In this document: positions 28,074 through 58,271 of the stretch, one piece after another
Numbering within the stretch: position 1 is the stretch's first letter
Layout of the letters: the number at the start of each line of letters is the position of its first letter
Source: a virus
IMG/VR virus record: IMGVR_UViG_3300030107_007542
Span: 96,001 to 160,000 of that record
Strand: one strand, 5' to 3'
Length of the DNA stretch: 64,000 nucleotides
Made by a program: the position numbers and the translations under genes
The notes under the pieces: generated by a model
Seen by the model: only the letters and a program-made list of their open reading frames with translations
The model's database searches: none
What the model was told of the DNA's origin: nothing

Positions 28074-29009
28074 TTATTCCACCCACTTCGCCGATTTTCT
28101 AAGCTCAGTTAGTTGCTCATCTTTAATCGAATATGAGTAGGTTTCTCCCGGGAAGGCTCCACTGTGTACATCTGCCACGTACTGCTCGATAGCCATTTTG
28201 GCCAACACTAGCAAACCATCGCCTCGCTGAGTGCGACCCAGTTGGCGAAGATCTCCGGCGGCTGAAAGATATTCAGTAAACCTACCTACAACCTCCGGTA
28301 CATAACACTTTGCAAACCAAGGTCGGAAAGACTGATAGAAGCCCATCAGATCATGCATAATGACAAGTTGTCCGTCAACACCTCCGCCGGCGCCGATGCC
28401 ATAAATAGGAATTTCCAGCTGCGCTGCGATCTGGGCCGCTGGTTCTGCTGGCATCGCTTCAAGCAAAATAGCAAAGACGCCAGCCTCTTGTAATGCCAAT
28501 GCATCTTCAAGAGTATCCTCGAAGCTCTTTACAGTCTTTCCCTGGACTCGATATCCACCAAAGGAGGTTGTACTCTGAGGAGTGAGCCCCAGGTGCCCCA
28601 CAACCGGAATACCTGCATCAACAATTGCGCGTACGCGAGTGGATACTCGGCGCCCTCCTTCTAGCTTGATAGCATCAGATGCGCACTCTTTTACAAAGCG
28701 CATTGCATTTCTAACTGCTTCCTCATCACTAATCTCATATGACCCCTGAGGCATGTCTCCCACAATAAACGTATTTGGGGCGCCTCTGCGAGCAGAGGAG
28801 GCCATGAAAATCATTTCATCCATCGTAACCGGATTTGTGGTGTCGTATCCTAGTTGTACCATCCCCCCAGAATCGCCAACAAGAATCATATCAACTCCCG
28901 CTTCTTCCGTGACCTGAGCAAACGGCAAATCATAAGCCGTAATCCAAGTTAATGGAGTACCGTTCTTCTTCATGGATACAAAATCTAATATTGTTTTCTT
29001 AGTTGCCAT
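28074..29009 (-). CDS. panB: Ketopantoate hydroxymethyltransferase homologue with C-terminal insertion
   Basis: ITAYD, ILVGDS, IVGDMP, IKLEGG, GHLGLTPQ, LLEAMP, GIGAG, DGQLVIMHDLMG. Confidence 0.9.
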   Translation of the reverse strand: MATKKTILDFVSMKKNGTPLTWITAYDLPFAQVTEEAGVDMILVGDSGGMVQLGYDTTNPVTMDEMIFMASSARRGAPNTFIVGDMPQGSYEISDEEAVRNAMRFVKECASDAIKLEGGRRVSTRVRAIVDAGIPVVGHLGLTPQSTTSFGGYRVQGKTVKSFEDTLEDALALQEAGVFAILLEAMPAEPAAQIAAQLEIPIYGIGAGGGVDGQLVIMHDLMGFYQSFRPWFAKCYVPEVVGRFTEYLSAAGDLRQLGRTQRGDGLLVLAKMAIEQYVADVHSGAFPGETYSYSIKDEQLTELRKSAKWVE

Positions 29010-38702: not shown

Positions 38703-38777
38703 TGGCTGCGGCGGCGGGGCTCGAACCTGCAACCGTTCGGTTAACAGCCGAATGCTCTACCATTGAGCTACACCGCA
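38703..38777 (-). tRNA. trnN: tRNA-Asn(GUU)
   Basis: TGCGGTG...CGCCGCA acceptor stem, anticodon loop CTGTTAA, T-loop GGTTCGAGCC, encoded CCA. Confidence 0.95.
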
Positions 38778-39041
38778 TTAATCTTCTCTTTGCAAGTATA
38801 CTACATTTCCTTCTTGTTTAAAAGCTTTTATTTCATCTACTATATCTTCCATGTCCTCAACTTCCCATGGCATTGGTATGAGGCCATGATGCGACATTCC
38901 CACTTCAAGATAATTTAAACGCTTCCATATATGTAAGTTAATTTCTTCCTGATTGTTGCGGATTTTTGTAACTCCCCATAGAATAGCAAAGTTAAACATA
39001 AATCCTAAAGTCGCTATAAAAAAAACAAATTCTACAGTCAT
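38778..39041 (-). CDS. Hypothetical membrane-anchored protein
   Basis: MTVEFVFFIATLGFMFNFAILWGV TM helix; lies between the two tRNAs. Confidence 0.65.
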   Translation of the reverse strand: MTVEFVFFIATLGFMFNFAILWGVTKIRNNQEEINLHIWKRLNYLEVGMSHHGLIPMPWEVEDMEDIVDEIKAFKQEGNVVYLQRED

Positions 39042-39048
39042 AATAATT

Positions 39049-39124
39049 TGGTGCCGGCACACGGGTTCGAACCGCGGACCTGCTGTTTACAAGACAGCTG
39101 CTCTACCAACTGAGCTATGCCGGC
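39049..39124 (-). tRNA. trnT: tRNA-Thr(UGU)
   Basis: GCCGGCA...TGCCGGC stem, GCTGT-CTTGTAA-ACAGC anticodon arm, GGTTCGAACC, encoded CCA. Confidence 0.95.
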
Positions 39125-41786: not shown

Positions 41787-42305
41787 TTAGTTGAAAAAAC
41801 CAGTTTTGTAATAAATGGTGCCCAAAACTCGCACAGATTCTCCTTCTGGGGGTGGTAAATAAAGAGTTAGTGCTTTATGTACCTCGTCTGGCGGGCGCCA
41901 AATTATTTGAAGGACCGATGCGGCGGAATTCCAGTTTGTATCAAACTCATTACCCAGTTGGTTTTCATAGTGCTCATGACAAGCATATTTATTATTGGTG
42001 AGAATAGCGATGAGATTATCGTGAAGATCATAACCTGAATTAAGAACGATATCTCTTCCGCAAATTGTAAAATAATTCTCCTCATCGTCATCGCGAAGCA
42101 TCGCAAAGGCTACTTGTCCTGAAATAAGATCAGTCTCTAGATTATCTGCGCAGTTAAAAATAAAGGTGTCGGGCCCGGTATTGCGACTCCACCAACAATC
42201 CATCGATGTGTAATAATCACCATATTCCTCGACTCTTAAGTCTTCTTCGATCAAGTTAGCACATGAAGACAAGAACAAAAATAGTAGAAATATTAGTTTA
42301 TACAC
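41787..42305 (-). CDS. Putative lipoprotein
   Basis: MYKLIFLLFLFLSS-C lipobox-like signal; GTG start. Confidence 0.6.
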   Translation of the reverse strand: MYKLIFLLFLFLSSCANLIEEDLRVEEYGDYYTSMDCWWSRNTGPDTFIFNCADNLETDLISGQVAFAMLRDDDEENYFTICGRDIVLNSGYDLHDNLIAILTNNKYACHEHYENQLGNEFDTNWNSAASVLQIIWRPPDEVHKALTLYLPPPEGESVRVLGTIYYKTGFFN

Positions 42306-42364: not shown

Positions 42365-42676
42365 TCATTCGCAACAGTTTATATCGTCATGAGTGTCAGG
42401 TTTGTTGGTCACCTTAAGCCACAAGCCCCACAGAATCGGAATCGCTAGCCAATGAAAACATAGAACTAAAGATGCTGGAATTCCAGCGAAAAACGCTGGA
42501 TGTACATAGTTGCCTAAGATCCCAAATATAATTGGGAAAACAACATCCTCAACAATCTCCCACCCAACAAAGATGATGACAAATGCTAGTCCATTTTTCT
42601 TAAGAAAGGCCTTCAGCTTTTCAATAGAAAAGTTGCTTAGTTTATGAGAGATTCTGGATTTTAGCCAACTAATCAT
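42365..42676 (-). CDS. Hypothetical membrane protein
   Basis: Two to three hydrophobic segments; starts 9 nt after the CCA of the tmRNA-like RNA. Confidence 0.65.
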   Translation of the reverse strand: MISWLKSRISHKLSNFSIEKLKAFLKKNGLAFVIIFVGWEIVEDVVFPIIFGILGNYVHPAFFAGIPASLVLCFHWLAIPILWGLWLKVTNKPDTHDDINCCE

Positions 42677-42684
42677 AAGTTTTT

Positions 42685-42766
42685 TGGTGGAGGTGCGCGG
42701 AATCGAACCGCGGTCCTGAGACTACCATTGCAGGTTTTAATCCCAGTCGAAACCAGAGCCACCCCC
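42685..42766 (-). ncRNA. Minimal tmRNA-like RNA (tRNA-like domain only, 82 nt)
   Basis: GGGGGTGGCTCTGGTTTCGAC-TGGGATTA-AAACCTGCAATGG-TAGTCTCA-GGAC-CGCGG-TTCGATT-CCGCG-CACCTCC-A-CCA. It shows the tmRNA 5' consensus, no D-stem, a G3.U70 pair, A73, CCA and the GGAC linker, with no coding domain. Confidence 0.8.
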
Positions 42767-42778
42767 TCATGTTTTTTC

Positions 42779-42807
42779 TTGACATTCATGTTTATATAAG
42801 TTATTCT
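42779..42807 (+). promoter_or_regulatory. Possible sigma70-type promoter antisense to the Fis-like gene
   Basis: TTGACA-17 nt-TATTCT on the plus strand; no plus-strand gene follows. Confidence 0.35.
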
Positions 42808-43163
42808 AAATCATTCTTATAGGAGTTCTTAATGTCATATTTACGTTTCAAAGCTTTAAAGGTCTGCTCACTAATTCCTAAGATTCTAGTAGCCCCCTTA
42901 TTGGTATCAGTTATACTAATCACTGCATTATATAGCGCTTCCTTCGTAATATCAACCACATTCGACCAAAGATTAAATCCATATAGTTTCCCCCCAGTTA
43001 GTCGACTGGAGCATTCTAATTTAAGGCCTATTAGTTCTTCCAAGGTTAATGTGGAGAGCATGATTTCAAATGCCTCGTTAGATTTGTTTTCGTCTCTCAA
43101 CTTTTTAGAGAGAGAAAGATCTTTACAAAAACCCTGCGAACTTCGTCGCGGAGGTTTGTTCAT
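42801..43163 (-). CDS. Putative DNA-binding protein with Fis-like C-terminal HTH
   Basis: TNKGATRILGISEQTFKALKRKY resembles the Fis/HTH_8 pattern NxxxAAxxLGIsrxTLxxKlkkY. Confidence 0.5.
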   Translation of the reverse strand: MNKPPRRSSQGFCKDLSLSKKLRDENKSNEAFEIMLSTLTLEELIGLKLECSSRLTGGKLYGFNLWSNVVDITKEALYNAVISITDTNKGATRILGISEQTFKALKRKYDIKNSYKNDLE

Positions 43164-43991
43164 TTATAATAAATTTTTAATAATGTCGTCTACATCAAGG
43201 TGCTTAAGCAGCTCTTGCAGTTCTAATCCAACTTCTTCTTCCGCCGCAGCCGGCTCATCAATTGCGTCTTCCTCGGCATCCACAGCCTCTTCAGGCTCGG
43301 GAACATCAGCTGGTAATTCGGACTCATACTTATCGAAATATAAGGCCAGATTTTTAATAAGATATTCTTCGAACATCTTAAGATCCTCAGGATCGTCGAG
43401 ATCATCGTACGCCCGGAGGATTACTTTCGAGATAGTTTGGAAGTCAGTATACGCCTTATTTCGGCCGGTTTTGTCTTCCCCGGAGATTGCAAATTCTTCC
43501 TTTTCAACTTCTCCATCAGATTTTACAACTTCTTTTTCTTCCACATCAATAAAGTCTGGATCATCTTCTGGATTATCAACACTGATATTGATATCCTCAT
43601 CTAGAGGACCACCTTCTACACTGGCAGAGGCCTCAATGGTGTCATCGGCTTCTTTTCGGGACTCTTCAGGTGCAAGTGATTTTTCAACTGCAACTAGAAC
43701 ATGGTTTCTGTAAGACATCCTCTGTTCTTTGGCAGTCGTGAGGGATTTATACCCCTTTTCCAAAACGGAGAGAATGTTAGAATTCTTAAGAAGATCTTCT
43801 AATACGTTAATACCAGTGTTGGCGTGCTTGGCAGTTGTGGTAACAGCGGTTTGACCTTCGCGAATCAAGTCACGAACGAGTTCTCGCAATTGACGCTCGT
43901 CGCTTGTATGTCGCGACTGGACCACTCGGATCGCTCGTCGCACGGTTTCGCGCAATTTCAATTCTTCTGCAAATTCTTCTCTGTTTATCAT
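43164..43991 (-). CDS. Acidic hypothetical protein (putative head internal/scaffold)
   Basis: 275 aa, very Glu/Asp-rich, with repeated LRELVRDLIRE-type helices. Confidence 0.6.
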   Translation of the reverse strand: MINREEFAEELKLRETVRRAIRVVQSRHTSDERQLRELVRDLIREGQTAVTTTAKHANTGINVLEDLLKNSNILSVLEKGYKSLTTAKEQRMSYRNHVLVAVEKSLAPEESRKEADDTIEASASVEGGPLDEDINISVDNPEDDPDFIDVEEKEVVKSDGEVEKEEFAISGEDKTGRNKAYTDFQTISKVILRAYDDLDDPEDLKMFEEYLIKNLALYFDKYESELPADVPEPEEAVDAEEDAIDEPAAAEEEVGLELQELLKHLDVDDIIKNLL

Positions 43992-53790: not shown

Positions 53791-55035
53791 ATGAGCGTCT
53801 TCCGTAAACACAAATCCATCGTCGATCGCGCCGCATCCGATCGGACGCGTCACAAAAAAAAGATTGACAAGGCAATTAAAGAGTCAATTAAAGATGTGGT
53901 GGCCGAAGAATCCATTATTGGACAAAATGGCAAGAAAAAGATCCGTATTCCGGTAAAAGGGATCAAAGAATATCGTTTTATCTACGGAAATAACGAAAAA
54001 AACCAGTCTGTTGGCTCTGGAGGGGATCATACTCTTAAAAGAGGTCAGAAAATCGGTGGCAAACGCGCCAAGAAGGGCCAAGGCCAAGGCCAAGGGAAAG
54101 CTAGCAATGAGCGCGGCGAGGAGTACTACGACGTAGAGATTACCCTAGAGGAATTAGCTGAATACCTCTTCAATGACCTTAATTTGCCCGATTTGGAGAA
54201 AAAACAGTTCCGTTTCATCACACAAGAGTCTATAAAGCGCAAAGGATACCGCTTTCAGGGCATTCGGCCGCGGCTCTCTAAAAAAGAGACCATTAAAAGG
54301 AAGATTCGACGTCGAAAACGCGCTGAAAAGGCCGGTACCTATGATCCAGAGGGTGACGAGCGCTTTCCTTTTCACAAAGATGACCTGAAATATCACCATA
54401 TTAAGCCCAAATCGAAAGAAAACAGTGCAGCAGTCATCTTTTTTCTCATGGACGTGTCGGGATCTATGTCTCAGGACCGAAAATTCCTTGCAAGGAGCTT
54501 CTTTTTCCTCTTATATCAGTTTCTAAACCATAAATACGAGAAATTAGATGTTGTTTTCATCTCTCACAGTACATATGCAGAGCGTGTTAACGAAAATGAC
54601 TTCTTTCGGGTGGCCTCAAACGGCGGAACTCTGATTTCAAGCGCTTTGGACAAAGAATTAGAAATAATTGACAAAGAATATCACCCAAATGCCTGGAATA
54701 TTTATACTTTTTACTGTGGCGATGGTGAAAATTGGGCATCTGACAACGAAAAAGCTGTTGATGACTTTAAAAAGATTAAAGAGGTTAACCAATTGGTAGG
54801 ATATTGTGAAATTAATGAAAATTATTCGGGACTTGCGGACACAGATGACAATCCCTCCACCTGGACGGGGCTCCCATGGGGTACTTTTTCGGCATGGAAA
54901 AACGAAGAGCCCGATAATCTATGGTCCAATTTAAATCCTATATGTGACAGCTCATTCAAACGAATTATGATTGGAAGCACGGACCATATATGGCAAGCCT
55001 TTACATATCTATTTGGAGGAGGCTCTAATGAGTAA
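53791..55035 (+). CDS. yeaH: DUF444 / YeaH-YhbH family vWA-like protein
   Basis: IRIPVKGIKEYRFIYG, FHKDDLKY, FFLMDVSGSM (MIDAS-like), GGTLISSA, WNIYTFYCGDGENW. Confidence 0.88.
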   Translation: MSVFRKHKSIVDRAASDRTRHKKKIDKAIKESIKDVVAEESIIGQNGKKKIRIPVKGIKEYRFIYGNNEKNQSVGSGGDHTLKRGQKIGGKRAKKGQGQGQGKASNERGEEYYDVEITLEELAEYLFNDLNLPDLEKKQFRFITQESIKRKGYRFQGIRPRLSKKETIKRKIRRRKRAEKAGTYDPEGDERFPFHKDDLKYHHIKPKSKENSAAVIFFLMDVSGSMSQDRKFLARSFFFLLYQFLNHKYEKLDVVFISHSTYAERVNENDFFRVASNGGTLISSALDKELEIIDKEYHPNAWNIYTFYCGDGENWASDNEKAVDDFKKIKEVNQLVGYCEINENYSGLADTDDNPSTWTGLPWGTFSAWKNEEPDNLWSNLNPICDSSFKRIMIGSTDHIWQAFTYLFGGGSNE

Positions 55036-56335
55036 TTGGACAGTTGGCGACCTGGAGATGTGGGACAACAAAATATGCAAGGTTGCTACAGATTTTGATC
55101 TAGATTGGTTCCCCATCGACTATGAAATCATAGATTATCAAGAAATGCTGGGAGCTATGGCTTATACTGGTATTCCGACCCACTACCGCCACTGGTCCTA
55201 TGGAAAAGAATACGAGCGCACACATACTCTTTATAACATGGGGCAGACTGGTCTTCCCTATGAGATGATCATCAATTCTAACCCGAGTATTGCATACCTG
55301 ATGCGTGAAAATCCTTTGTACATTCACGTACTGACGATGGCACACTGTGTGGGACATAGTGACTTTTTTAAACAAAATCGCATGTTTGCCCACACCAATC
55401 CCGACAACGTCATGAGTACTTTTAAGGCAGCTGCAAAGTATGTTAGGCAGCTTATTGAGGATCCTTCAATTGGAATTGAAAAGGTTGAGCGCATTCTGGA
55501 TGCTGCACATGCCATTAAATACCAGGTCCCGCGCTATCCTGGGATCACTTATAAAACAAGAGAAGAGTGGGTGGCGATCGAGCGTAAAAAACAACAGAAA
55601 GATCCCACCTATCAAGTAGATCTAAAAAAATACCCTCATGAGCCAGAGTATAACCTACTGCTTTTTATAGCCAACAATAGTCGAAACCTTGAAGACTGGG
55701 AACGAAACTTATTGATGATCGTAGAAGAAAACTCACAGTATTTCATTCCTCAGGCACTTACGAAGATAATGAATGAGGGGTGGGCTTGCACTATTCATCA
55801 AAAGATTATCAATGAATTGAATCTTCCGGACAAGCTATATTTACCCTTTATTAAATTACACAACCAAGTGGTACGCCCCCACTTGGGTACTGTCAATCCT
55901 TACCATTTAGGGTTTGAATTATTCAAGAAGATTATCGAAGAGCACGGTTTTGAAGAAGCGATGCTAATTCGCGAAACACATAATGATATTACCTTTTTGA
56001 GAACCTATTTAGATCAAGAGTTTCTTATGGATCAAAATCTTTTTAGTTATTCATTTAAATCGGCTTACAAATCAAGTACAATTGATGATATATCAGATGA
56101 AGGTGGCTGGGAGCGCATCAGGGATGCTCTTATCTCTAACGTAGGGTTGAACCGCGTACCTGTTGTGTTTGTAATGGAAATGAATAAGGATCACAAATTA
56201 ACCTTAGTTCATGAACATGATGGTAGAGATCTAGATGTGCCTTATGCACAAAAAGTTTTTGATTACATAAAAGACCTTTGGGGAGATGAGATAGTACTTC
56301 TCTCTCAGATAGAGGGCGAAACATGGGAGTTTTAG
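55028..56335 (+). CDS. ycgB: SpoVR family protein
   Basis: YTGIPTHYRHWSYGK, LPYEMIINSNP, AHCVGHSDFF, TKIMNEGWA, NPYHLG. Start ATG 55028 overlaps the end of yeaH. Confidence 0.9.
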   Translation: MSNWTVGDLEMWDNKICKVATDFDLDWFPIDYEIIDYQEMLGAMAYTGIPTHYRHWSYGKEYERTHTLYNMGQTGLPYEMIINSNPSIAYLMRENPLYIHVLTMAHCVGHSDFFKQNRMFAHTNPDNVMSTFKAAAKYVRQLIEDPSIGIEKVERILDAAHAIKYQVPRYPGITYKTREEWVAIERKKQQKDPTYQVDLKKYPHEPEYNLLLFIANNSRNLEDWERNLLMIVEENSQYFIPQALTKIMNEGWACTIHQKIINELNLPDKLYLPFIKLHNQVVRPHLGTVNPYHLGFELFKKIIEEHGFEEAMLIRETHNDITFLRTYLDQEFLMDQNLFSYSFKSAYKSSTIDDISDEGGWERIRDALISNVGLNRVPVVFVMEMNKDHKLTLVHEHDGRDLDVPYAQKVFDYIKDLWGDEIVLLSQIEGETWEF

Positions 56336-56336
56336 C

Positions 56337-58271
56337 ATGGGAGTAACAAACAAGTTTCTGGAAACGATCCAGGCACACAAGGAGGGCGCCAAAAAAGAAA
56401 AGTTTGATGGCCTTCTCCAAGATTACTTAGAACTTATTGAAAACGGCGACGTCAAGCCGGTATTGGCTCACAAGCGCCTGTACGATGGCATCCTCTCGTA
56501 TGGCATGGAGACGCTAGACGAGTCTGACAGTCGATGCAATAAGATCTTCGACGGCGAGCCAGTGCGTATTTATGATTATTTTGCATCTCAATTCTTTGGC
56601 ATGGAGCGCTCTTTAGAGAAAGTAATGCGATTCCTCCATTCTGCTGCCATGAAGGGAGAGGAAAGTCGACAGGTCTTGCTACTTCTGGGCCCTGTAGGCG
56701 CCGGAAAGTCAGCTCTCGTAGAACACATCAAGAGCGCCCTGGAGAAGCTTGACCCGGTTTATACTCTCAAGGGTTGTCCAATTCAAGAAGAGCCGCTCCA
56801 CTTGATCCCTCGCTCTCTAAGAGCAGAGTTTGAGGAGTTGTACAACGTCAAGATTGAAGGAGACCTTTGCCCGGTCTGTCGACACCGACTTTTAAAAGAA
56901 TACGAGGGGGACTACACACGATTTCCCATTACTGAGGTCTCATTCTCAATTCGCGGCCGTAAGGGTGTCGGCGTCGTGCCTCCCATGGATCCGAACACTC
57001 AAGACACAAGCCTCCTCATTGGCTCCGAAGATATTTCAAAACTAGATCTCTATCCGGAGGACGACCCCCGCGTACTTAGCCTTAATGGTGCTTTTAATGT
57101 AGGTAATCGAGGTATCGTCGAGTTTGTCGAGGTCTTTAAAAACGAAATTGAATTCCTTCATACCATGATCACAGCCACGCAGGAAAAGAGTGTTCCATCG
57201 CCAGGCAAACAGGCTATGATTTATTTTGATGGCGTCATTCTAGCTCACTGTAATGAAGCAGAGTGGAACAAGTTTAAATCTGAACATACCAACGAAGCTA
57301 TCCTGGATCGAATTGTGAGGGTGAATGTTCCTTACTGTTTAGAGTACGAGCAGGAAGTAAAGATTTATGAAAAGCTCCTTGGCCGCTCAGATTATCGGTG
57401 TCATATCGCGCCGCACACACTAGAGGTAGCCGCAATGTTCGCTGTTCTGTCGCGACTACACTCCTCCAATAAAGCTGACCCCTTGACCAAGATGAAAATC
57501 TACAACGGTGAGGAAATCATTGAAAAGGGTCTCATTCGTAAAATTGATATTAAAGATCTTCGTGAAGAAGTAGAAGACGAAGGAATGACAGGAATCTCTA
57601 CTCGCTTTATCATGAAAGCCATTGATGCCGCACTAGCCGACTCCACTAAAGATATGATCACTCCCATATCGATTCGGGATGCTCTGATTAAACAGGTAAA
57701 AGAACAGATTACCAATTCGGACGCCAAGAAGACATATCTCTCATATCTTCAGAAAACACTTCATGAGGAATATCTAACAATCCTTGAGAAGGAAATTACC
57801 AAGGCATTTGTTACAGCTTATGAAGAGCAAGCTGAGTCCCTCTTTAACAACTACCTTGATCACGCCGAGGCCTATGTTAATAACACCAAGGTAAAGGATA
57901 AAGTTACCAGCGAAGACATGGAACCCGATGAGAAGTTCCTCCAATCAATTGAGGAGCAGATCGGCATTAAGGGTTCTGCCAAGAACAACTTCCGAGCTGA
58001 CATTACCTCCTACATGTTTTCAAAGTTGCGGCGAGGAGAAGCAATTGACTGGCGTTCTTATGGTCCTCTAAGGGAGGCGATTGAAACAAAGCTTGTTGCA
58101 TCGGTGCGAGACATTTCTCGAATTATCACAAAGTCTAAGTCGCGCGATACCAAGCAGCAACGTAAGTTCAGCTCAATGGTTCAGACCTTAATTGACAATT
58201 ATGGTTATAATGAAGATTCAGCCGAAGAAGTGATAAAGTTTGCTAGCAACAATCTTTGGAGAGACTCTTAA
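56337..58271 (+). CDS. yeaG: PrkA/YeaG AAA+ serine kinase-like protein
   Basis: LLLLGPVGAGKS (Walker A), GCPIQEEPL, NRGIVEFVEVFK, ILAHCNEAEW, GMTGISTRF. Confidence 0.92.
   Translation: MGVTNKFLETIQAHKEGAKKEKFDGLLQDYLELIENGDVKPVLAHKRLYDGILSYGMETLDESDSRCNKIFDGEPVRIYDYFASQFFGMERSLEKVMRFLHSAAMKGEESRQVLLLLGPVGAGKSALVEHIKSALEKLDPVYTLKGCPIQEEPLHLIPRSLRAEFEELYNVKIEGDLCPVCRHRLLKEYEGDYTRFPITEVSFSIRGRKGVGVVPPMDPNTQDTSLLIGSEDISKLDLYPEDDPRVLSLNGAFNVGNRGIVEFVEVFKNEIEFLHTMITATQEKSVPSPGKQAMIYFDGVILAHCNEAEWNKFKSEHTNEAILDRIVRVNVPYCLEYEQEVKIYEKLLGRSDYRCHIAPHTLEVAAMFAVLSRLHSSNKADPLTKMKIYNGEEIIEKGLIRKIDIKDLREEVEDEGMTGISTRFIMKAIDAALADSTKDMITPISIRDALIKQVKEQITNSDAKKTYLSYLQKTLHEEYLTILEKEITKAFVTAYEEQAESLFNNYLDHAEAYVNNTKVKDKVTSEDMEPDEKFLQSIEEQIGIKGSAKNNFRADITSYMFSKLRRGEAIDWRSYGPLREAIETKLVASVRDISRIITKSKSRDTKQQRKFSSMVQTLIDNYGYNEDSAEEVIKFASNNLWRDS

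What the first reader, a model, noticed from the sequence alone, without database searches (positions are those of the whole stretch)
42685..42766. 82-nt 'mini-tmRNA': complete alanylatable tRNA-like domain with no mRNA-like domain
The sequence carries both ends of a tmRNA. The 5' end GGGGGTGGCTCTGGTTTCGAC follows the tmRNA consensus (unpaired D-loop region ending in TCGAC). The 3' end has GGAC, a perfect T-arm (CGCGG/TTCGATT/CCGCG), an acceptor stem with the G3.U70 AlaRS determinant, A73 and encoded CCA. Helix 2a (TGGGATTA/TAGTCTCA, 8 bp with two G.U) is closed by only 13 nt, where the ~280-nt pseudoknot/tag ORF normally lies. Tag-less tmRNAs are known from some protist mitochondria; I know of none as a phage gene. 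Inference: charged with Ala and bound to host SmpB it could (a) rescue stalled ribosomes without an ssrA degradation tag, protecting phage proteins when host toxins cut mRNA/tRNA, (b) add template-free Ala tails, as TLD+SmpB can in vitro, or (c) titrate SmpB and shut off host trans-translation. The loop contains TGC (the Ala anticodon) but lacks a proper anticodon stem. The intact stems on both sides argue for selection rather than decay.
Basis: partly seen in the sequence, partly recalled or inferred. Interest (0 to 1): 0.92.

Follow-up and report, generated by a model that had tools for sequence, protein, structure and literature searches.

The report
Phage tag-less mini-tmRNA gene
This 194-kb phage carries a real, conserved 82-base gene for only the alanine-accepting, tRNA-like end of the bacterial ribosome-rescue RNA (tmRNA). 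One such phage RNA (mycobacteriophage DS6A) was already published, but here the short form sits exactly where sister phages keep a full-length, tag-encoding tmRNA.

Summary
Window 42685-42766 (minus strand) matches Rfam tmRNA end to end at 72.9 bits (cut-off 47), with about 300 internal positions replaced by 10 nt. ARAGORN misses it.

It is not new as a kind. Mycobacteriophage DS6A's 'TLD only' tmRNA is published and reported to inhibit E. coli tmRNA, and my family model hits DS6A. This scan has also found the class many times on other DNA.

Covariation is strong (94-95% of cells paired against 63% in shuffles), and G3.U70 is kept in 109 of 110.

New here:
- In related phages the slot after a conserved gene holds either this mini form (9 loci plus this phage) or a full-length tmRNA with an ...ALAA tag (11 close relatives).
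- The mini RNAs are one lineage, but their carriers are not one clade on flanking genes, so the two forms swap as cassettes.
- Against relative L028, neighbouring synonymous sites are 35-56% identical, while the RNA is 90% identical and seven of its eight differences are pair-preserving stem changes.

Most likely the RNA is charged with alanine and competes, through host SmpB, with host tmRNA, so stalled ribosomes are handled without a degradation tag. Expression and biochemistry are untested.

The parts
42685..42766 (-). Mini-tmRNA (TLD-only tmRNA) gene, 82 nt including the encoded CCA
   Evidence: Rfam RF00023 72.9 bits, E 2e-26. Family model R1 75.7 bits. MFE fold.
42760..42766 (-). Acceptor stem, 5' strand GGGGGUG (RNA 1-7), with G3 of the G3.U70-equivalent wobble pair
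   Evidence: Sequence. G.U at this pair in 58/58 and 51/52 distinct family members.
42746..42759 (-). Linker GCUC plus D-loop analogue UGGUUUCGAC (RNA 8-21); no D stem
   Evidence: Alignment to the tmRNA consensus. Linker length varies from 2 to 4 nt in most of the family.
42738..42745 (-). Helix 2a, 5' strand UGGGAUUA (RNA 22-29)
   Evidence: Pairs with RNA 43-50. All 7 modelled helix-2a pairs covary across the family.
42725..42737 (-). 13-nt cap AAACCUGCAAUGG (RNA 30-42): A-rich bulge, short CC/GG stem and loop UGCAAU, in place of helices 2b-d, the pseudoknots and the tag ORF
   Evidence: CCUGCAAKGG is conserved in all 10 copies of this phage group. An analogous AAA plus small hairpin occurs in most family members.
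42717..42724 (-). Helix 2a, 3' strand UAGUCUCA (RNA 43-50)
   Evidence: Differences from L028 here keep pairing.
42713..42716 (-). GGAC junction (RNA 51-54)
   Evidence: GGAC in 35 of 55 family members, GGAN in 52 of 55.
42696..42712 (-). T-arm CGCGG/UUCGAUU/CCGCG (RNA 55-71)
   Evidence: 100% of T-stem cells are paired in the family. G:C to A:U compensatory change within this phage group.
42685..42695 (-). Acceptor stem 3' strand CACCUCC, discriminator A, encoded CCA (RNA 72-82)
   Evidence: The discriminator is A in 72 of 73 family copies; CCA is encoded in 20 of 73.
42801..43163 (-). orf120, the conserved upstream neighbour that marks the tmRNA slot; function unknown
   Evidence: 64 related viral loci found with its alignment. 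No Pfam or PHROG hit.
43164..43991 (-). orf275, second conserved upstream neighbour; function unknown
42365..42676 (-). orf103, a small hydrophobic ORF starting 8 nt after the CCA; not conserved in relative L028, which has a different ORF there
41787..42305 (-). orf172, conserved downstream neighbour (also in L028 and L083)
38703..39124 (-). tRNA-Asn(GUU) and tRNA-Thr(UGU), same strand, 3.6 kb downstream. A tRNA-Thr(UGU) follows the tmRNA slot in the relatives whose flank reaches that far (Thr plus Asn in L080)
42803..42955 (-). Sigma-70-like promoter matches upstream of the RNA (TTGATA-17-TATAAT at 42955..42927; TTAAGA-18-TAGAAT at 42832..42803); consensus matches only

Best explanation
This is a functional phage gene for a tag-less, TLD-only tmRNA.

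[quoted passage not shown] It belongs to a large, covarying, virus-associated family that includes the published DS6A RNA. In this phage group it is the alternative occupant of the slot that otherwise holds a full-length, tag-encoding tmRNA. It has been under purifying selection in its short form.

Inferred mechanism:
1. The RNA is cut out of a longer transcript by host tRNA-processing enzymes (RNase P at the 5' end).
2. Host AlaRS charges it with alanine through G3.U70 and A73.
3. Host SmpB and EF-Tu bind it.
4. It competes with host tmRNA for SmpB and for stalled ribosomes.
5. On the ribosome it can accept the nascent chain, but it offers no reading frame, so no ssrA degradation tag is added.

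The net effect is that host trans-translation tagging is suppressed during infection. How the peptidyl-RNA is then resolved (host ArfB, ArfA/RF2, or drop-off plus Pth) is unknown.
For: - Identity: Rfam tmRNA 72.9 bits with the internal part deleted. It is not a tRNA.
- Structure: 94.0% and 95.1% of cells are paired, against 63% in shuffles and 41-53% with slid partners. The covariation score is 0.755 and 0.759 against 0.15. A landmark-based parse that does not use the model shows the same helices.
- Alanine identity is kept while neighbouring pairs vary: G3.U70 in 58/58 and 51/52 distinct sequences, and A73 in 72/73. This points to selection for charging.
- tRNA-like gene context: 15 of 71 loci have tRNA genes within 1 kb, all on the same strand, some 2-16 nt away.
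- Precedent: DS6A's published TLD-only RNA has the same architecture (R1 58.5 bits) and is reported to inhibit endogenous tmRNA in E. coli (PMC4131195, PMC11915505).
- A TLD-only RNA can take part in peptidyl transfer in vitro (Shimizu and Ueda 2006, as cited in PMC3895274).
- Selection on the short form: against L028, third-codon identity is 54% in orf120 and 40% in orf275, and four-fold-site identity is 56% and 35%. The intergenic flanks show no obvious similarity. The RNA is 74/82 identical, and the 7 stem differences all keep pairing.
- Same slot in relatives: mini form in 9 other loci, full-length tmRNA with ...ALAA tags in 11 close relatives and, within about 1.4 kb downstream, in 16 more distant ones.
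- Dependence on the host: the phage encodes no SmpB, RF-1/ArfB-type, Pth, RtcB or CCA-adding enzyme.
Against: - Promoter matches are consensus only, and no terminator follows the gene.
- Charging, SmpB binding and ribosome entry are inferred from established tmRNA and tRNA-Ala rules. None was tested.
- Hudson et al. [quoted passage not shown] So SmpB titration alone can suffice in E. coli, which favours the sponge rival.
- The fate of a peptidyl-TLD on the ribosome is unknown, and the phage brings no hydrolase.
- The D-loop and T-loop motifs were fixed by my search patterns, so their invariance is by construction. Alignments A2 and A3 were fitted to the model's structure.
- The host is unknown.
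Confidence: 0.5

Rival explanations
1. Pure SmpB sponge. The RNA acts only by binding and sequestering host SmpB (and perhaps RNase R with it). This shuts off trans-translation without being charged or entering the ribosome.
For: [quoted passage not shown] The parts of the TLD that SmpB is known to bind (D-loop analogue, GGAC junction, top of helix 2a) are intact.
Against: A sponge has no need for G3.U70, A73 or a correct 3' end. Yet G3.U70 is kept in 109 of 110 distinct sequences and A73 in 72 of 73, while acceptor pairs 4-7 vary freely. The short form also replaces a functional full-length tmRNA at the same slot, which fits a shared ribosomal activity better than an opposite one.
Confidence: 0.22
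2. Decoy or shield in the defence arms race. The RNA is a bait or competitor for host anti-phage nucleases or sensors that act on tmRNA and tRNA-like RNAs. Its effect on ribosome rescue would be secondary.
For: It sits in tRNA arrays in many phages, and phage tRNA genes are known counter-measures to anticodon nucleases (general knowledge). DS6A and Streptomyces phage pSt2308 carry RNA ligase genes: RtcB-like in DS6A, and an RNA ligase beside the tRNA array in pSt2308. Predicted defence systems carry SmpB-like domains (PMC11090510). A phage anti-CRISPR uses tmRNA and tRNA fragments (PMC11662646).
Against: There is no direct link in this genome: no RtcB and no defence-related neighbour. The strict retention of the whole aminoacylation and EF-Tu-binding module is not explained by a bait role.
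Confidence: 0.12
3. Non-functional remnant or artefact: a decaying internal-deletion derivative of the phage's full-length ssrA, an assembly deletion, or an att-site fragment.
For: Related phages carry a full-length tmRNA at the same position, so a deletion origin is plausible.
Against: The same short form occurs in contigs from nine other metagenome assemblies. It is 90% identical to the L028 copy, with pair-preserving changes, across a divergence that nearly saturates synonymous sites next door. Both TLD halves are present, unlike att sites, and the genome has no tyrosine integrase. The wider family shows strong covariation.
Confidence: 0.03

Closest known systems
TLD-only (CDS-less) tmRNA of mycobacteriophage DS6A (tmRNA Website tmID 11587; Mao et al. 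2009, as cited in PMC4131195 and PMC11915505)
   Same: A phage-encoded RNA of about 80 nt. It has a 7-bp acceptor stem with G3.U70, a D-loop analogue, helix 2a, an A-rich bulge plus a small capped hairpin, a T-arm and discriminator A, with no tag ORF. The same covariance model hits both (window 75.7 bits, DS6A 58.5 bits).
   Different: DS6A is a 60-kb temperate siphovirus of mycobacteria that encodes an integrase. This is a 194-kb integrase-less myovirus of unknown host. The sequences share only the universal TLD motifs. Here the RNA alternates with a full-length tmRNA at an orthologous slot, which has not been reported for DS6A. The DS6A gene is not annotated in its GenBank record.
Standard one-piece bacterial or phage tmRNA (Rfam RF00023), including the full-length tmRNAs of sister phages (L080/L228, L083/L242 and others)
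   Same: Both TLD halves, the alanine identity elements, the T-arm, helix 2a and the encoded CCA. Same genomic slot after orf120 and upstream of a tRNA-Thr gene.
   Different: It lacks helices 2b-d, all pseudoknots, the resume codon and the tag ORF, so it cannot add a degradation tag. The sister genes are 312-364 nt and encode tags such as ANDADYGLALAA.
CDS-less organellar tmRNAs: jakobid mitochondrial mt-tmRNA and the ~65-bp plastid genes of Mallomonadaceae (PMC11915505)
   Same: Natural tmRNAs reduced to the tRNA-like domain, thought to act with SmpB without tagging.
   Different: Those are organellar genes that replace the only tmRNA of the compartment. This one is a viral gene acting alongside the host's own full-length tmRNA, so competition is expected.
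Laboratory TLD constructs used for SmpB co-crystals and in-vitro trans-translation assays (Gutmann 2003, Bessho 2007, Shimizu and Ueda 2006; cited in PMC11090510 and PMC3895274)
   Same: Acceptor and T-arm plus helix 2a closed by a short loop. Such constructs bind SmpB, and peptidyl transfer to a TLD-only RNA has been reported.
   Different: Those are engineered. This is a natural, selected gene.

Membership tests
tmRNA (Rfam RF00023), tRNA-like domain | Score above the family's gathering cut-off, with both ends of the model matched | tested here: met
   72.9 bits against 47, model positions 1-374.
tmRNA (Rfam RF00023), tRNA-like domain | 7-bp acceptor stem with the G3.U70 wobble pair, discriminator A73 and a CCA end (alanine identity) | tested here: met
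   GGGGGUG/CACCUCC with G3.U, then A, then encoded CCA.
tmRNA (Rfam RF00023), tRNA-like domain | D-loop analogue ending UUCGAC without a D stem, GGAC junction, helix 2a, and a T-arm with GGUUCGAUUCC | tested here: met
   Alignment to the consensus and fold.
tmRNA (Rfam RF00023), whole molecule | mRNA-like domain with a resume codon and a tag ORF | tested here: not met
   303 model positions are replaced by 10 nt. ARAGORN finds no tag.
tmRNA (Rfam RF00023), whole molecule | Pseudoknots PK1-PK4 and helices 2b-2d | tested here: not met
   Only 13 nt lie between the strands of helix 2a.
tmRNA (functional definition) | Alanylation by AlaRS, binding of SmpB and EF-Tu, entry into stalled ribosomes | not testable with these tools
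   Inferred from conserved identity elements only. The phage has no SmpB of its own.
TLD-only (CDS-less) phage tmRNA, DS6A type | Both TLD halves contiguous, joined by helix 2a and a short cap; about 60-95 nt; no tag ORF; phage-encoded | tested here: met
   82 nt in a complete virus record. Family lengths are 63-92 nt.
TLD-only (CDS-less) phage tmRNA, DS6A type | Recognised by one covariance model together with the published DS6A RNA | tested here: met
   R1 scores: window 75.7 bits, DS6A 28478-28557 58.5 bits, Streptomyces phage pSt2308 65.5 bits.
TLD-only (CDS-less) phage tmRNA, DS6A type | Inhibits host trans-translation | not testable with these tools
   Reported for DS6A in E. coli (PMC11915505). 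Not tested for this RNA.
Canonical tRNA-Ala | Cloverleaf with a D-arm and a 5-bp anticodon stem with a 7-nt loop | tested here: not met
   ARAGORN calls no tRNA here. There is no D stem, and the central arm is 8 bp plus a bulge plus 3 bp with a 6-nt loop. Within the tRNA clan, tmRNA is the best Rfam match.
Mitochondrial mt-tmRNA (Rfam RF02544) | Best match within the tRNA/tmRNA clan is the mt-tmRNA model | tested here: inconclusive
   The tool keeps only the best clan member, which was RF00023. The mt-tmRNA score itself was not shown.
Phage attP or ssrA 3'-end fragment | Only the 3' part of ssrA is present, with an integrase in the genome | tested here: not met
   Both halves are present. There is no PF00589 integrase in the genome.

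The most novel reading that the evidence does not exclude
Full-length and tag-less tmRNA genes are interchangeable cassettes kept side by side by selection in one phage population. The tag-less form is charged with alanine and carries out a distinct, tag-free kind of ribosome rescue during infection: the nascent chain is transferred to Ala-TLD and then released by a host hydrolase, so phage proteins made from cut or truncated mRNAs escape ssrA-directed proteolysis. This mode has so far only been conjectured for organelles.
Probability: 0.3. Interest if true: 0.75.

Novelty: new member of a known kind. Interest (0 to 1): 0.55.

Why it matters
Phage tmRNA genes are usually read as helpers that keep host ribosomes running. 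A widespread version without the tag shows that many phages want only the tRNA-like half.

The published DS6A experiment says that this half blocks the host system. The conservation of the alanine identity elements seen here says that the RNA is probably also charged. The two facts together make a sharp question: sponge, or tag-free rescue?

This phage group offers natural pairs, with near-relatives carrying either a full-length tag-encoding tmRNA or the mini form in the same slot. That makes the question testable by swapping the two.

In practice, ARAGORN did not call the short form in this window, and the copies in cultured phages (DS6A, Streptomyces phage pSt2308) are unannotated in their GenBank records. 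Rfam's tmRNA model does find them.

Tried and rejected
- Primary paper: Mao et al. 2009 is not held. I rely on two papers from the same laboratory that summarise it.
- Close cultured relatives: megablast of 6 kb around the gene found nothing in 50,697 phage records. BLAST of the 82-nt RNA found only 3'-half matches. PhoH and PrkA-like proteins are under 40% identical to any named phage. The host remains unknown.
- ARAGORN's long 'tmRNA' calls over the mini genes of L019, L058 and L040 are rejected where I checked. Rfam scores only the short form in L019 and L040. L058 has the same RNA as L019.
- Neighbouring proteins orf103, orf120, orf275, orf172 and orf193 gave no credible Pfam or PHROG family. 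orf618 has only a weak 'cytidyltransferase' PHROG match, E about 3e-6, and no Pfam hit.
- First trees of orf275 and orf120 with 8-10 rows were star-like and uninformative. The 24-row concatenated tree was needed.
- A deletion origin from the present sister full-length genes was considered. The mini form's helix 2a, linker and T-stem differ from theirs. A faint likeness between the cap and a 3' segment of the full-length genes (AAACCUGUGAAUGAC) is too short to count.
- A bacterial or prophage origin was considered. The same pattern found 29 stretches in 185,579 species genomes, only about five of them strong, all in MAG contigs.

Full report
**1. The observation**

Window 42685-42766, read on the minus strand, is GGGGGUGGCUCUGGUUUCGAC-UGGGAUUA-AAACCUGCAAUGG-UAGUCUCA-GGAC-CGCGG-UUCGAUU-CCGCG-CACCUCC-A-CCA. 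Rfam's tmRNA model RF00023 matches it from model position 1 to 374 at 72.9 bits (gathering score 47, E 2e-26). 303 internal model positions are replaced by 10 nt.

ARAGORN calls neither a tRNA nor a tmRNA here. The minimum-free-energy fold gives the 7-bp acceptor stem, helix 2a, an AAA bulge, a 3-bp ACC/GGU stem closed by UGCAAU, and the T-arm.

The window is bases 96001-160000 of a 193,778-bp virus record rated complete. That genome has this one tmRNA-like gene and five tRNAs. It has no SmpB, RF-1/ArfB-type, Pth, RtcB or CCA-adding enzyme, and no tyrosine integrase. Baseplate wedge genes mark it as a myovirus. No cultured phage is close, so the host is unknown.

**2. It belongs to a large family**

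A pattern that asks for the two TLD motifs 20-50 nt apart found 77 viral contigs. Of 73 copies that pass a simple stem check, 72 have G3.U70 and discriminator A, and 20 encode CCA. Lengths are mostly 74-81 nt, with outliers from 63 to 92.

A second pattern frees the D-loop and T-loop and anchors on GGAC. All 67 new loci carry a full-length match to my covariance model R1.

The two sets give 59 and 52 distinct aligned rows. They show 94.0% and 95.1% of cells paired, against 63% in shuffles and 41-53% with slid partners. Covariation scores are 0.755 and 0.759 against 0.15. All seven modelled helix-2a pairs and the three outer T-stem pairs covary. G3.U70 is kept in 58/58 and 51/52.

Two caveats apply. 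The motifs named in the patterns are invariant by construction, and these alignments were fitted to the model. However, a landmark parse that does not use the model shows the same helices, plus a recurrent 'AAA plus small hairpin' cap.

The same pattern found only 29 stretches in one genome each of 185,579 prokaryote species. About five of these are strong, all in MAG contigs. The family is therefore essentially viral.

In 15 of 71 loci a tRNA gene lies within 1 kb, always on the same strand, sometimes 2-16 nt away.

**3. It is not new as a kind**

Hudson, Lau and Williams (PMC4131195) list 'Mycobacterium phage DS6A (TLD only)'. [quoted passage not shown] The 2025 tmRNA database paper (PMC11915505) repeats that the DS6A form inhibits endogenous tmRNA when expressed in E. 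coli. It also reports ~65-bp CDS-less plastid forms.

R1 finds the DS6A gene at 28478-28557, unannotated between gp33 and gp34, with the same architecture at 58.5 bits. It finds another, also unannotated, in the tRNA array of cultured Streptomyces phage pSt2308 at 65.5 bits.

Searches of the held literature gave no description of the wider family. This scan has met the class many times on other DNA, and earlier follow-ups reached the same precedent. I reproduced their main claims independently here.

**4. What is particular to this locus**

The gene lies 34 nt after the stop codon of orf120 and 8 nt before the ATG of a small ORF. An alignment of orf120 homologues retrieved 64 related viral loci.

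Just downstream of orf120, these loci fall into three groups:
- nine loci hold a mini form (R1 62-74 bits);
- eleven close relatives hold a full-length one-piece tmRNA of 312-364 nt with tags such as ANDSNYTSYALAA and ANDADYGLALAA;
- sixteen more distant relatives also hold a full-length tmRNA, within about 1.4 kb.

Where the flank reaches far enough, a tRNA-Thr(UGU) follows, as in the window. Full-length is therefore the likely ancestral occupant of the slot.

The ten mini copies, including this one, are clearly one lineage. They share the acceptor stem, the helix-2a core and the CCUGCAAKGG hairpin at 93% mean column identity. Their T-stem and closing helix-2a pair show compensatory changes. 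Their helix 2a, linker and T-stem differ from those of the neighbouring full-length genes.

On a tree of orf120 plus orf275, however, their carriers are interleaved with full-length carriers. L236 and L240 nest with 100/100 support among seven full-length carriers. The best tree needs five changes of state. An AU test rejects a single clade of mini carriers (log-likelihood difference 189, p about 6e-101). Caveats: 404 columns, long outgroup branches, and the flanking genes may themselves recombine.

My reading is that the two forms are alternative cassettes exchanged by recombination at a conserved slot.

**5. Selection on the short form**

Between this phage and L028:
- orf120 is 75% identical in protein, 54% at third codon positions and 56% at four-fold sites;
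- orf275 is 62% identical in protein, 40% at third codon positions and 35% at four-fold sites;
- the intergenic flanks on both sides of the RNA show no obvious similarity;
- the RNA is 74/82 identical. One difference lies in the linker, and seven lie in stems, all keeping a pair.

The same short form is present in contigs from nine other metagenome assemblies. This rules out decay or an assembly deletion as the explanation.

**6. Mechanism**

Established knowledge supplies the parts:
- G3.U70 with A73 is the AlaRS identity set.
- The acceptor and T-arm are the EF-Tu-binding part.
- SmpB binds the D-loop analogue, the GGAC junction and the top of helix 2a, and stands in for the anticodon arm (summarised in PMC4201823 and PMC11090510).
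- Peptidyl transfer to a TLD-only RNA has been reported in vitro.

All of these elements are intact here, and the phage brings no partner protein. So the RNA must work through host SmpB, AlaRS and EF-Tu, and must compete with host tmRNA.

The published DS6A result shows that such competition inhibits tagging, and that charging was not needed for inhibition in E. coli. Against a pure sponge stands the near-universal retention of the alanine identity elements, while acceptor pairs 4-7 vary. The short form also substitutes for a working full-length tmRNA in the same slot.

I therefore favour a charged competitor that reaches stalled ribosomes and accepts the nascent chain without adding a degron (0.5), over a pure SmpB sponge (0.22), a decoy for defence nucleases or sensors (0.12), or a remnant (0.03).

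Nothing about expression, charging, binding or the later fate of the peptidyl-RNA was tested.

**7. Verdict**

The claim of no phage precedent does not.

It is a new member of a known but thinly documented kind. The added value here is the full-length/mini alternation at one slot, the evidence for cassette exchange, and the selection contrast. Together these turn 'what is the tag-less form for?' into a direct swap experiment.

Noticed in passing
window 53791-58271 (+): Three adjacent genes resemble the bacterial PrkA/YeaG serine kinase, YeaH and SpoVR/YcgB trio. The 644-aa protein is about 33% identical to 'serine kinase' or 'YeaG' genes of Thermus and Ralstonia phages. The first gene hits a PHROG annotated 'sporulation protein'.
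   Followed up: partly
L019 6093-6154 (-): A Pistol self-cleaving ribozyme (Rfam RF02679, 51.9 bits) lies about 105 nt upstream of that phage's mini-tmRNA on the same strand. It may help cut out the RNA's 5' side.
   Followed up: no
L094 28478-28557 (DS6A, JN698994) and L095 2991-3071 (pSt2308, PV588686): The TLD-only tmRNA genes of two cultured phages are not annotated in their GenBank records. BLAST suggests further copies in Streptomyces phages LuckySocke, GiJojo and Alone3.
   Followed up: partly
L013 5-81 and 1317-1392 (+): One viral contig carries two matches to the mini-tmRNA model 1.2 kb apart (44.6 and 63.7 bits), with a DUF3800-VIII RNA motif between them.
   Followed up: no
L280 3891-3969 (+): A more distant relative has, downstream of its orf120 homologue, a short T-arm-bearing RNA-like element (R1 34 bits). 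It has an A3:U pair instead of G3.U and no UUCGAC motif, and ARAGORN finds no tmRNA. It may be a degenerate or different short form.
   Followed up: no
L019, L058, L040: ARAGORN reports 324-530-nt 'tmRNAs' that end in the mini-tmRNA. Rfam scores only the short form in L019 and L040, so tmRNA counts in phage surveys based on ARAGORN may include such artefacts and miss true short forms.
   Followed up: partly
L047 794-1003 (+): A HEARO RNA (Rfam RF02033, 170.6 bits) lies on the same viral contig as a mini-tmRNA.
   Followed up: no
window 42365-42676 (-): The small hydrophobic ORF that starts 8 nt after the RNA's CCA has no homologue in relative L028, which carries a different ORF in that gap. 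The space downstream of the slot is variable too.
   Followed up: partly
L087 record (G005) 119261-119570: In one more distant relative the orf120 flank showed no tmRNA, but a full-length tmRNA (113.6 bits) lies elsewhere on the contig. So the gene is not tied to the slot in all lineages.
   Followed up: no
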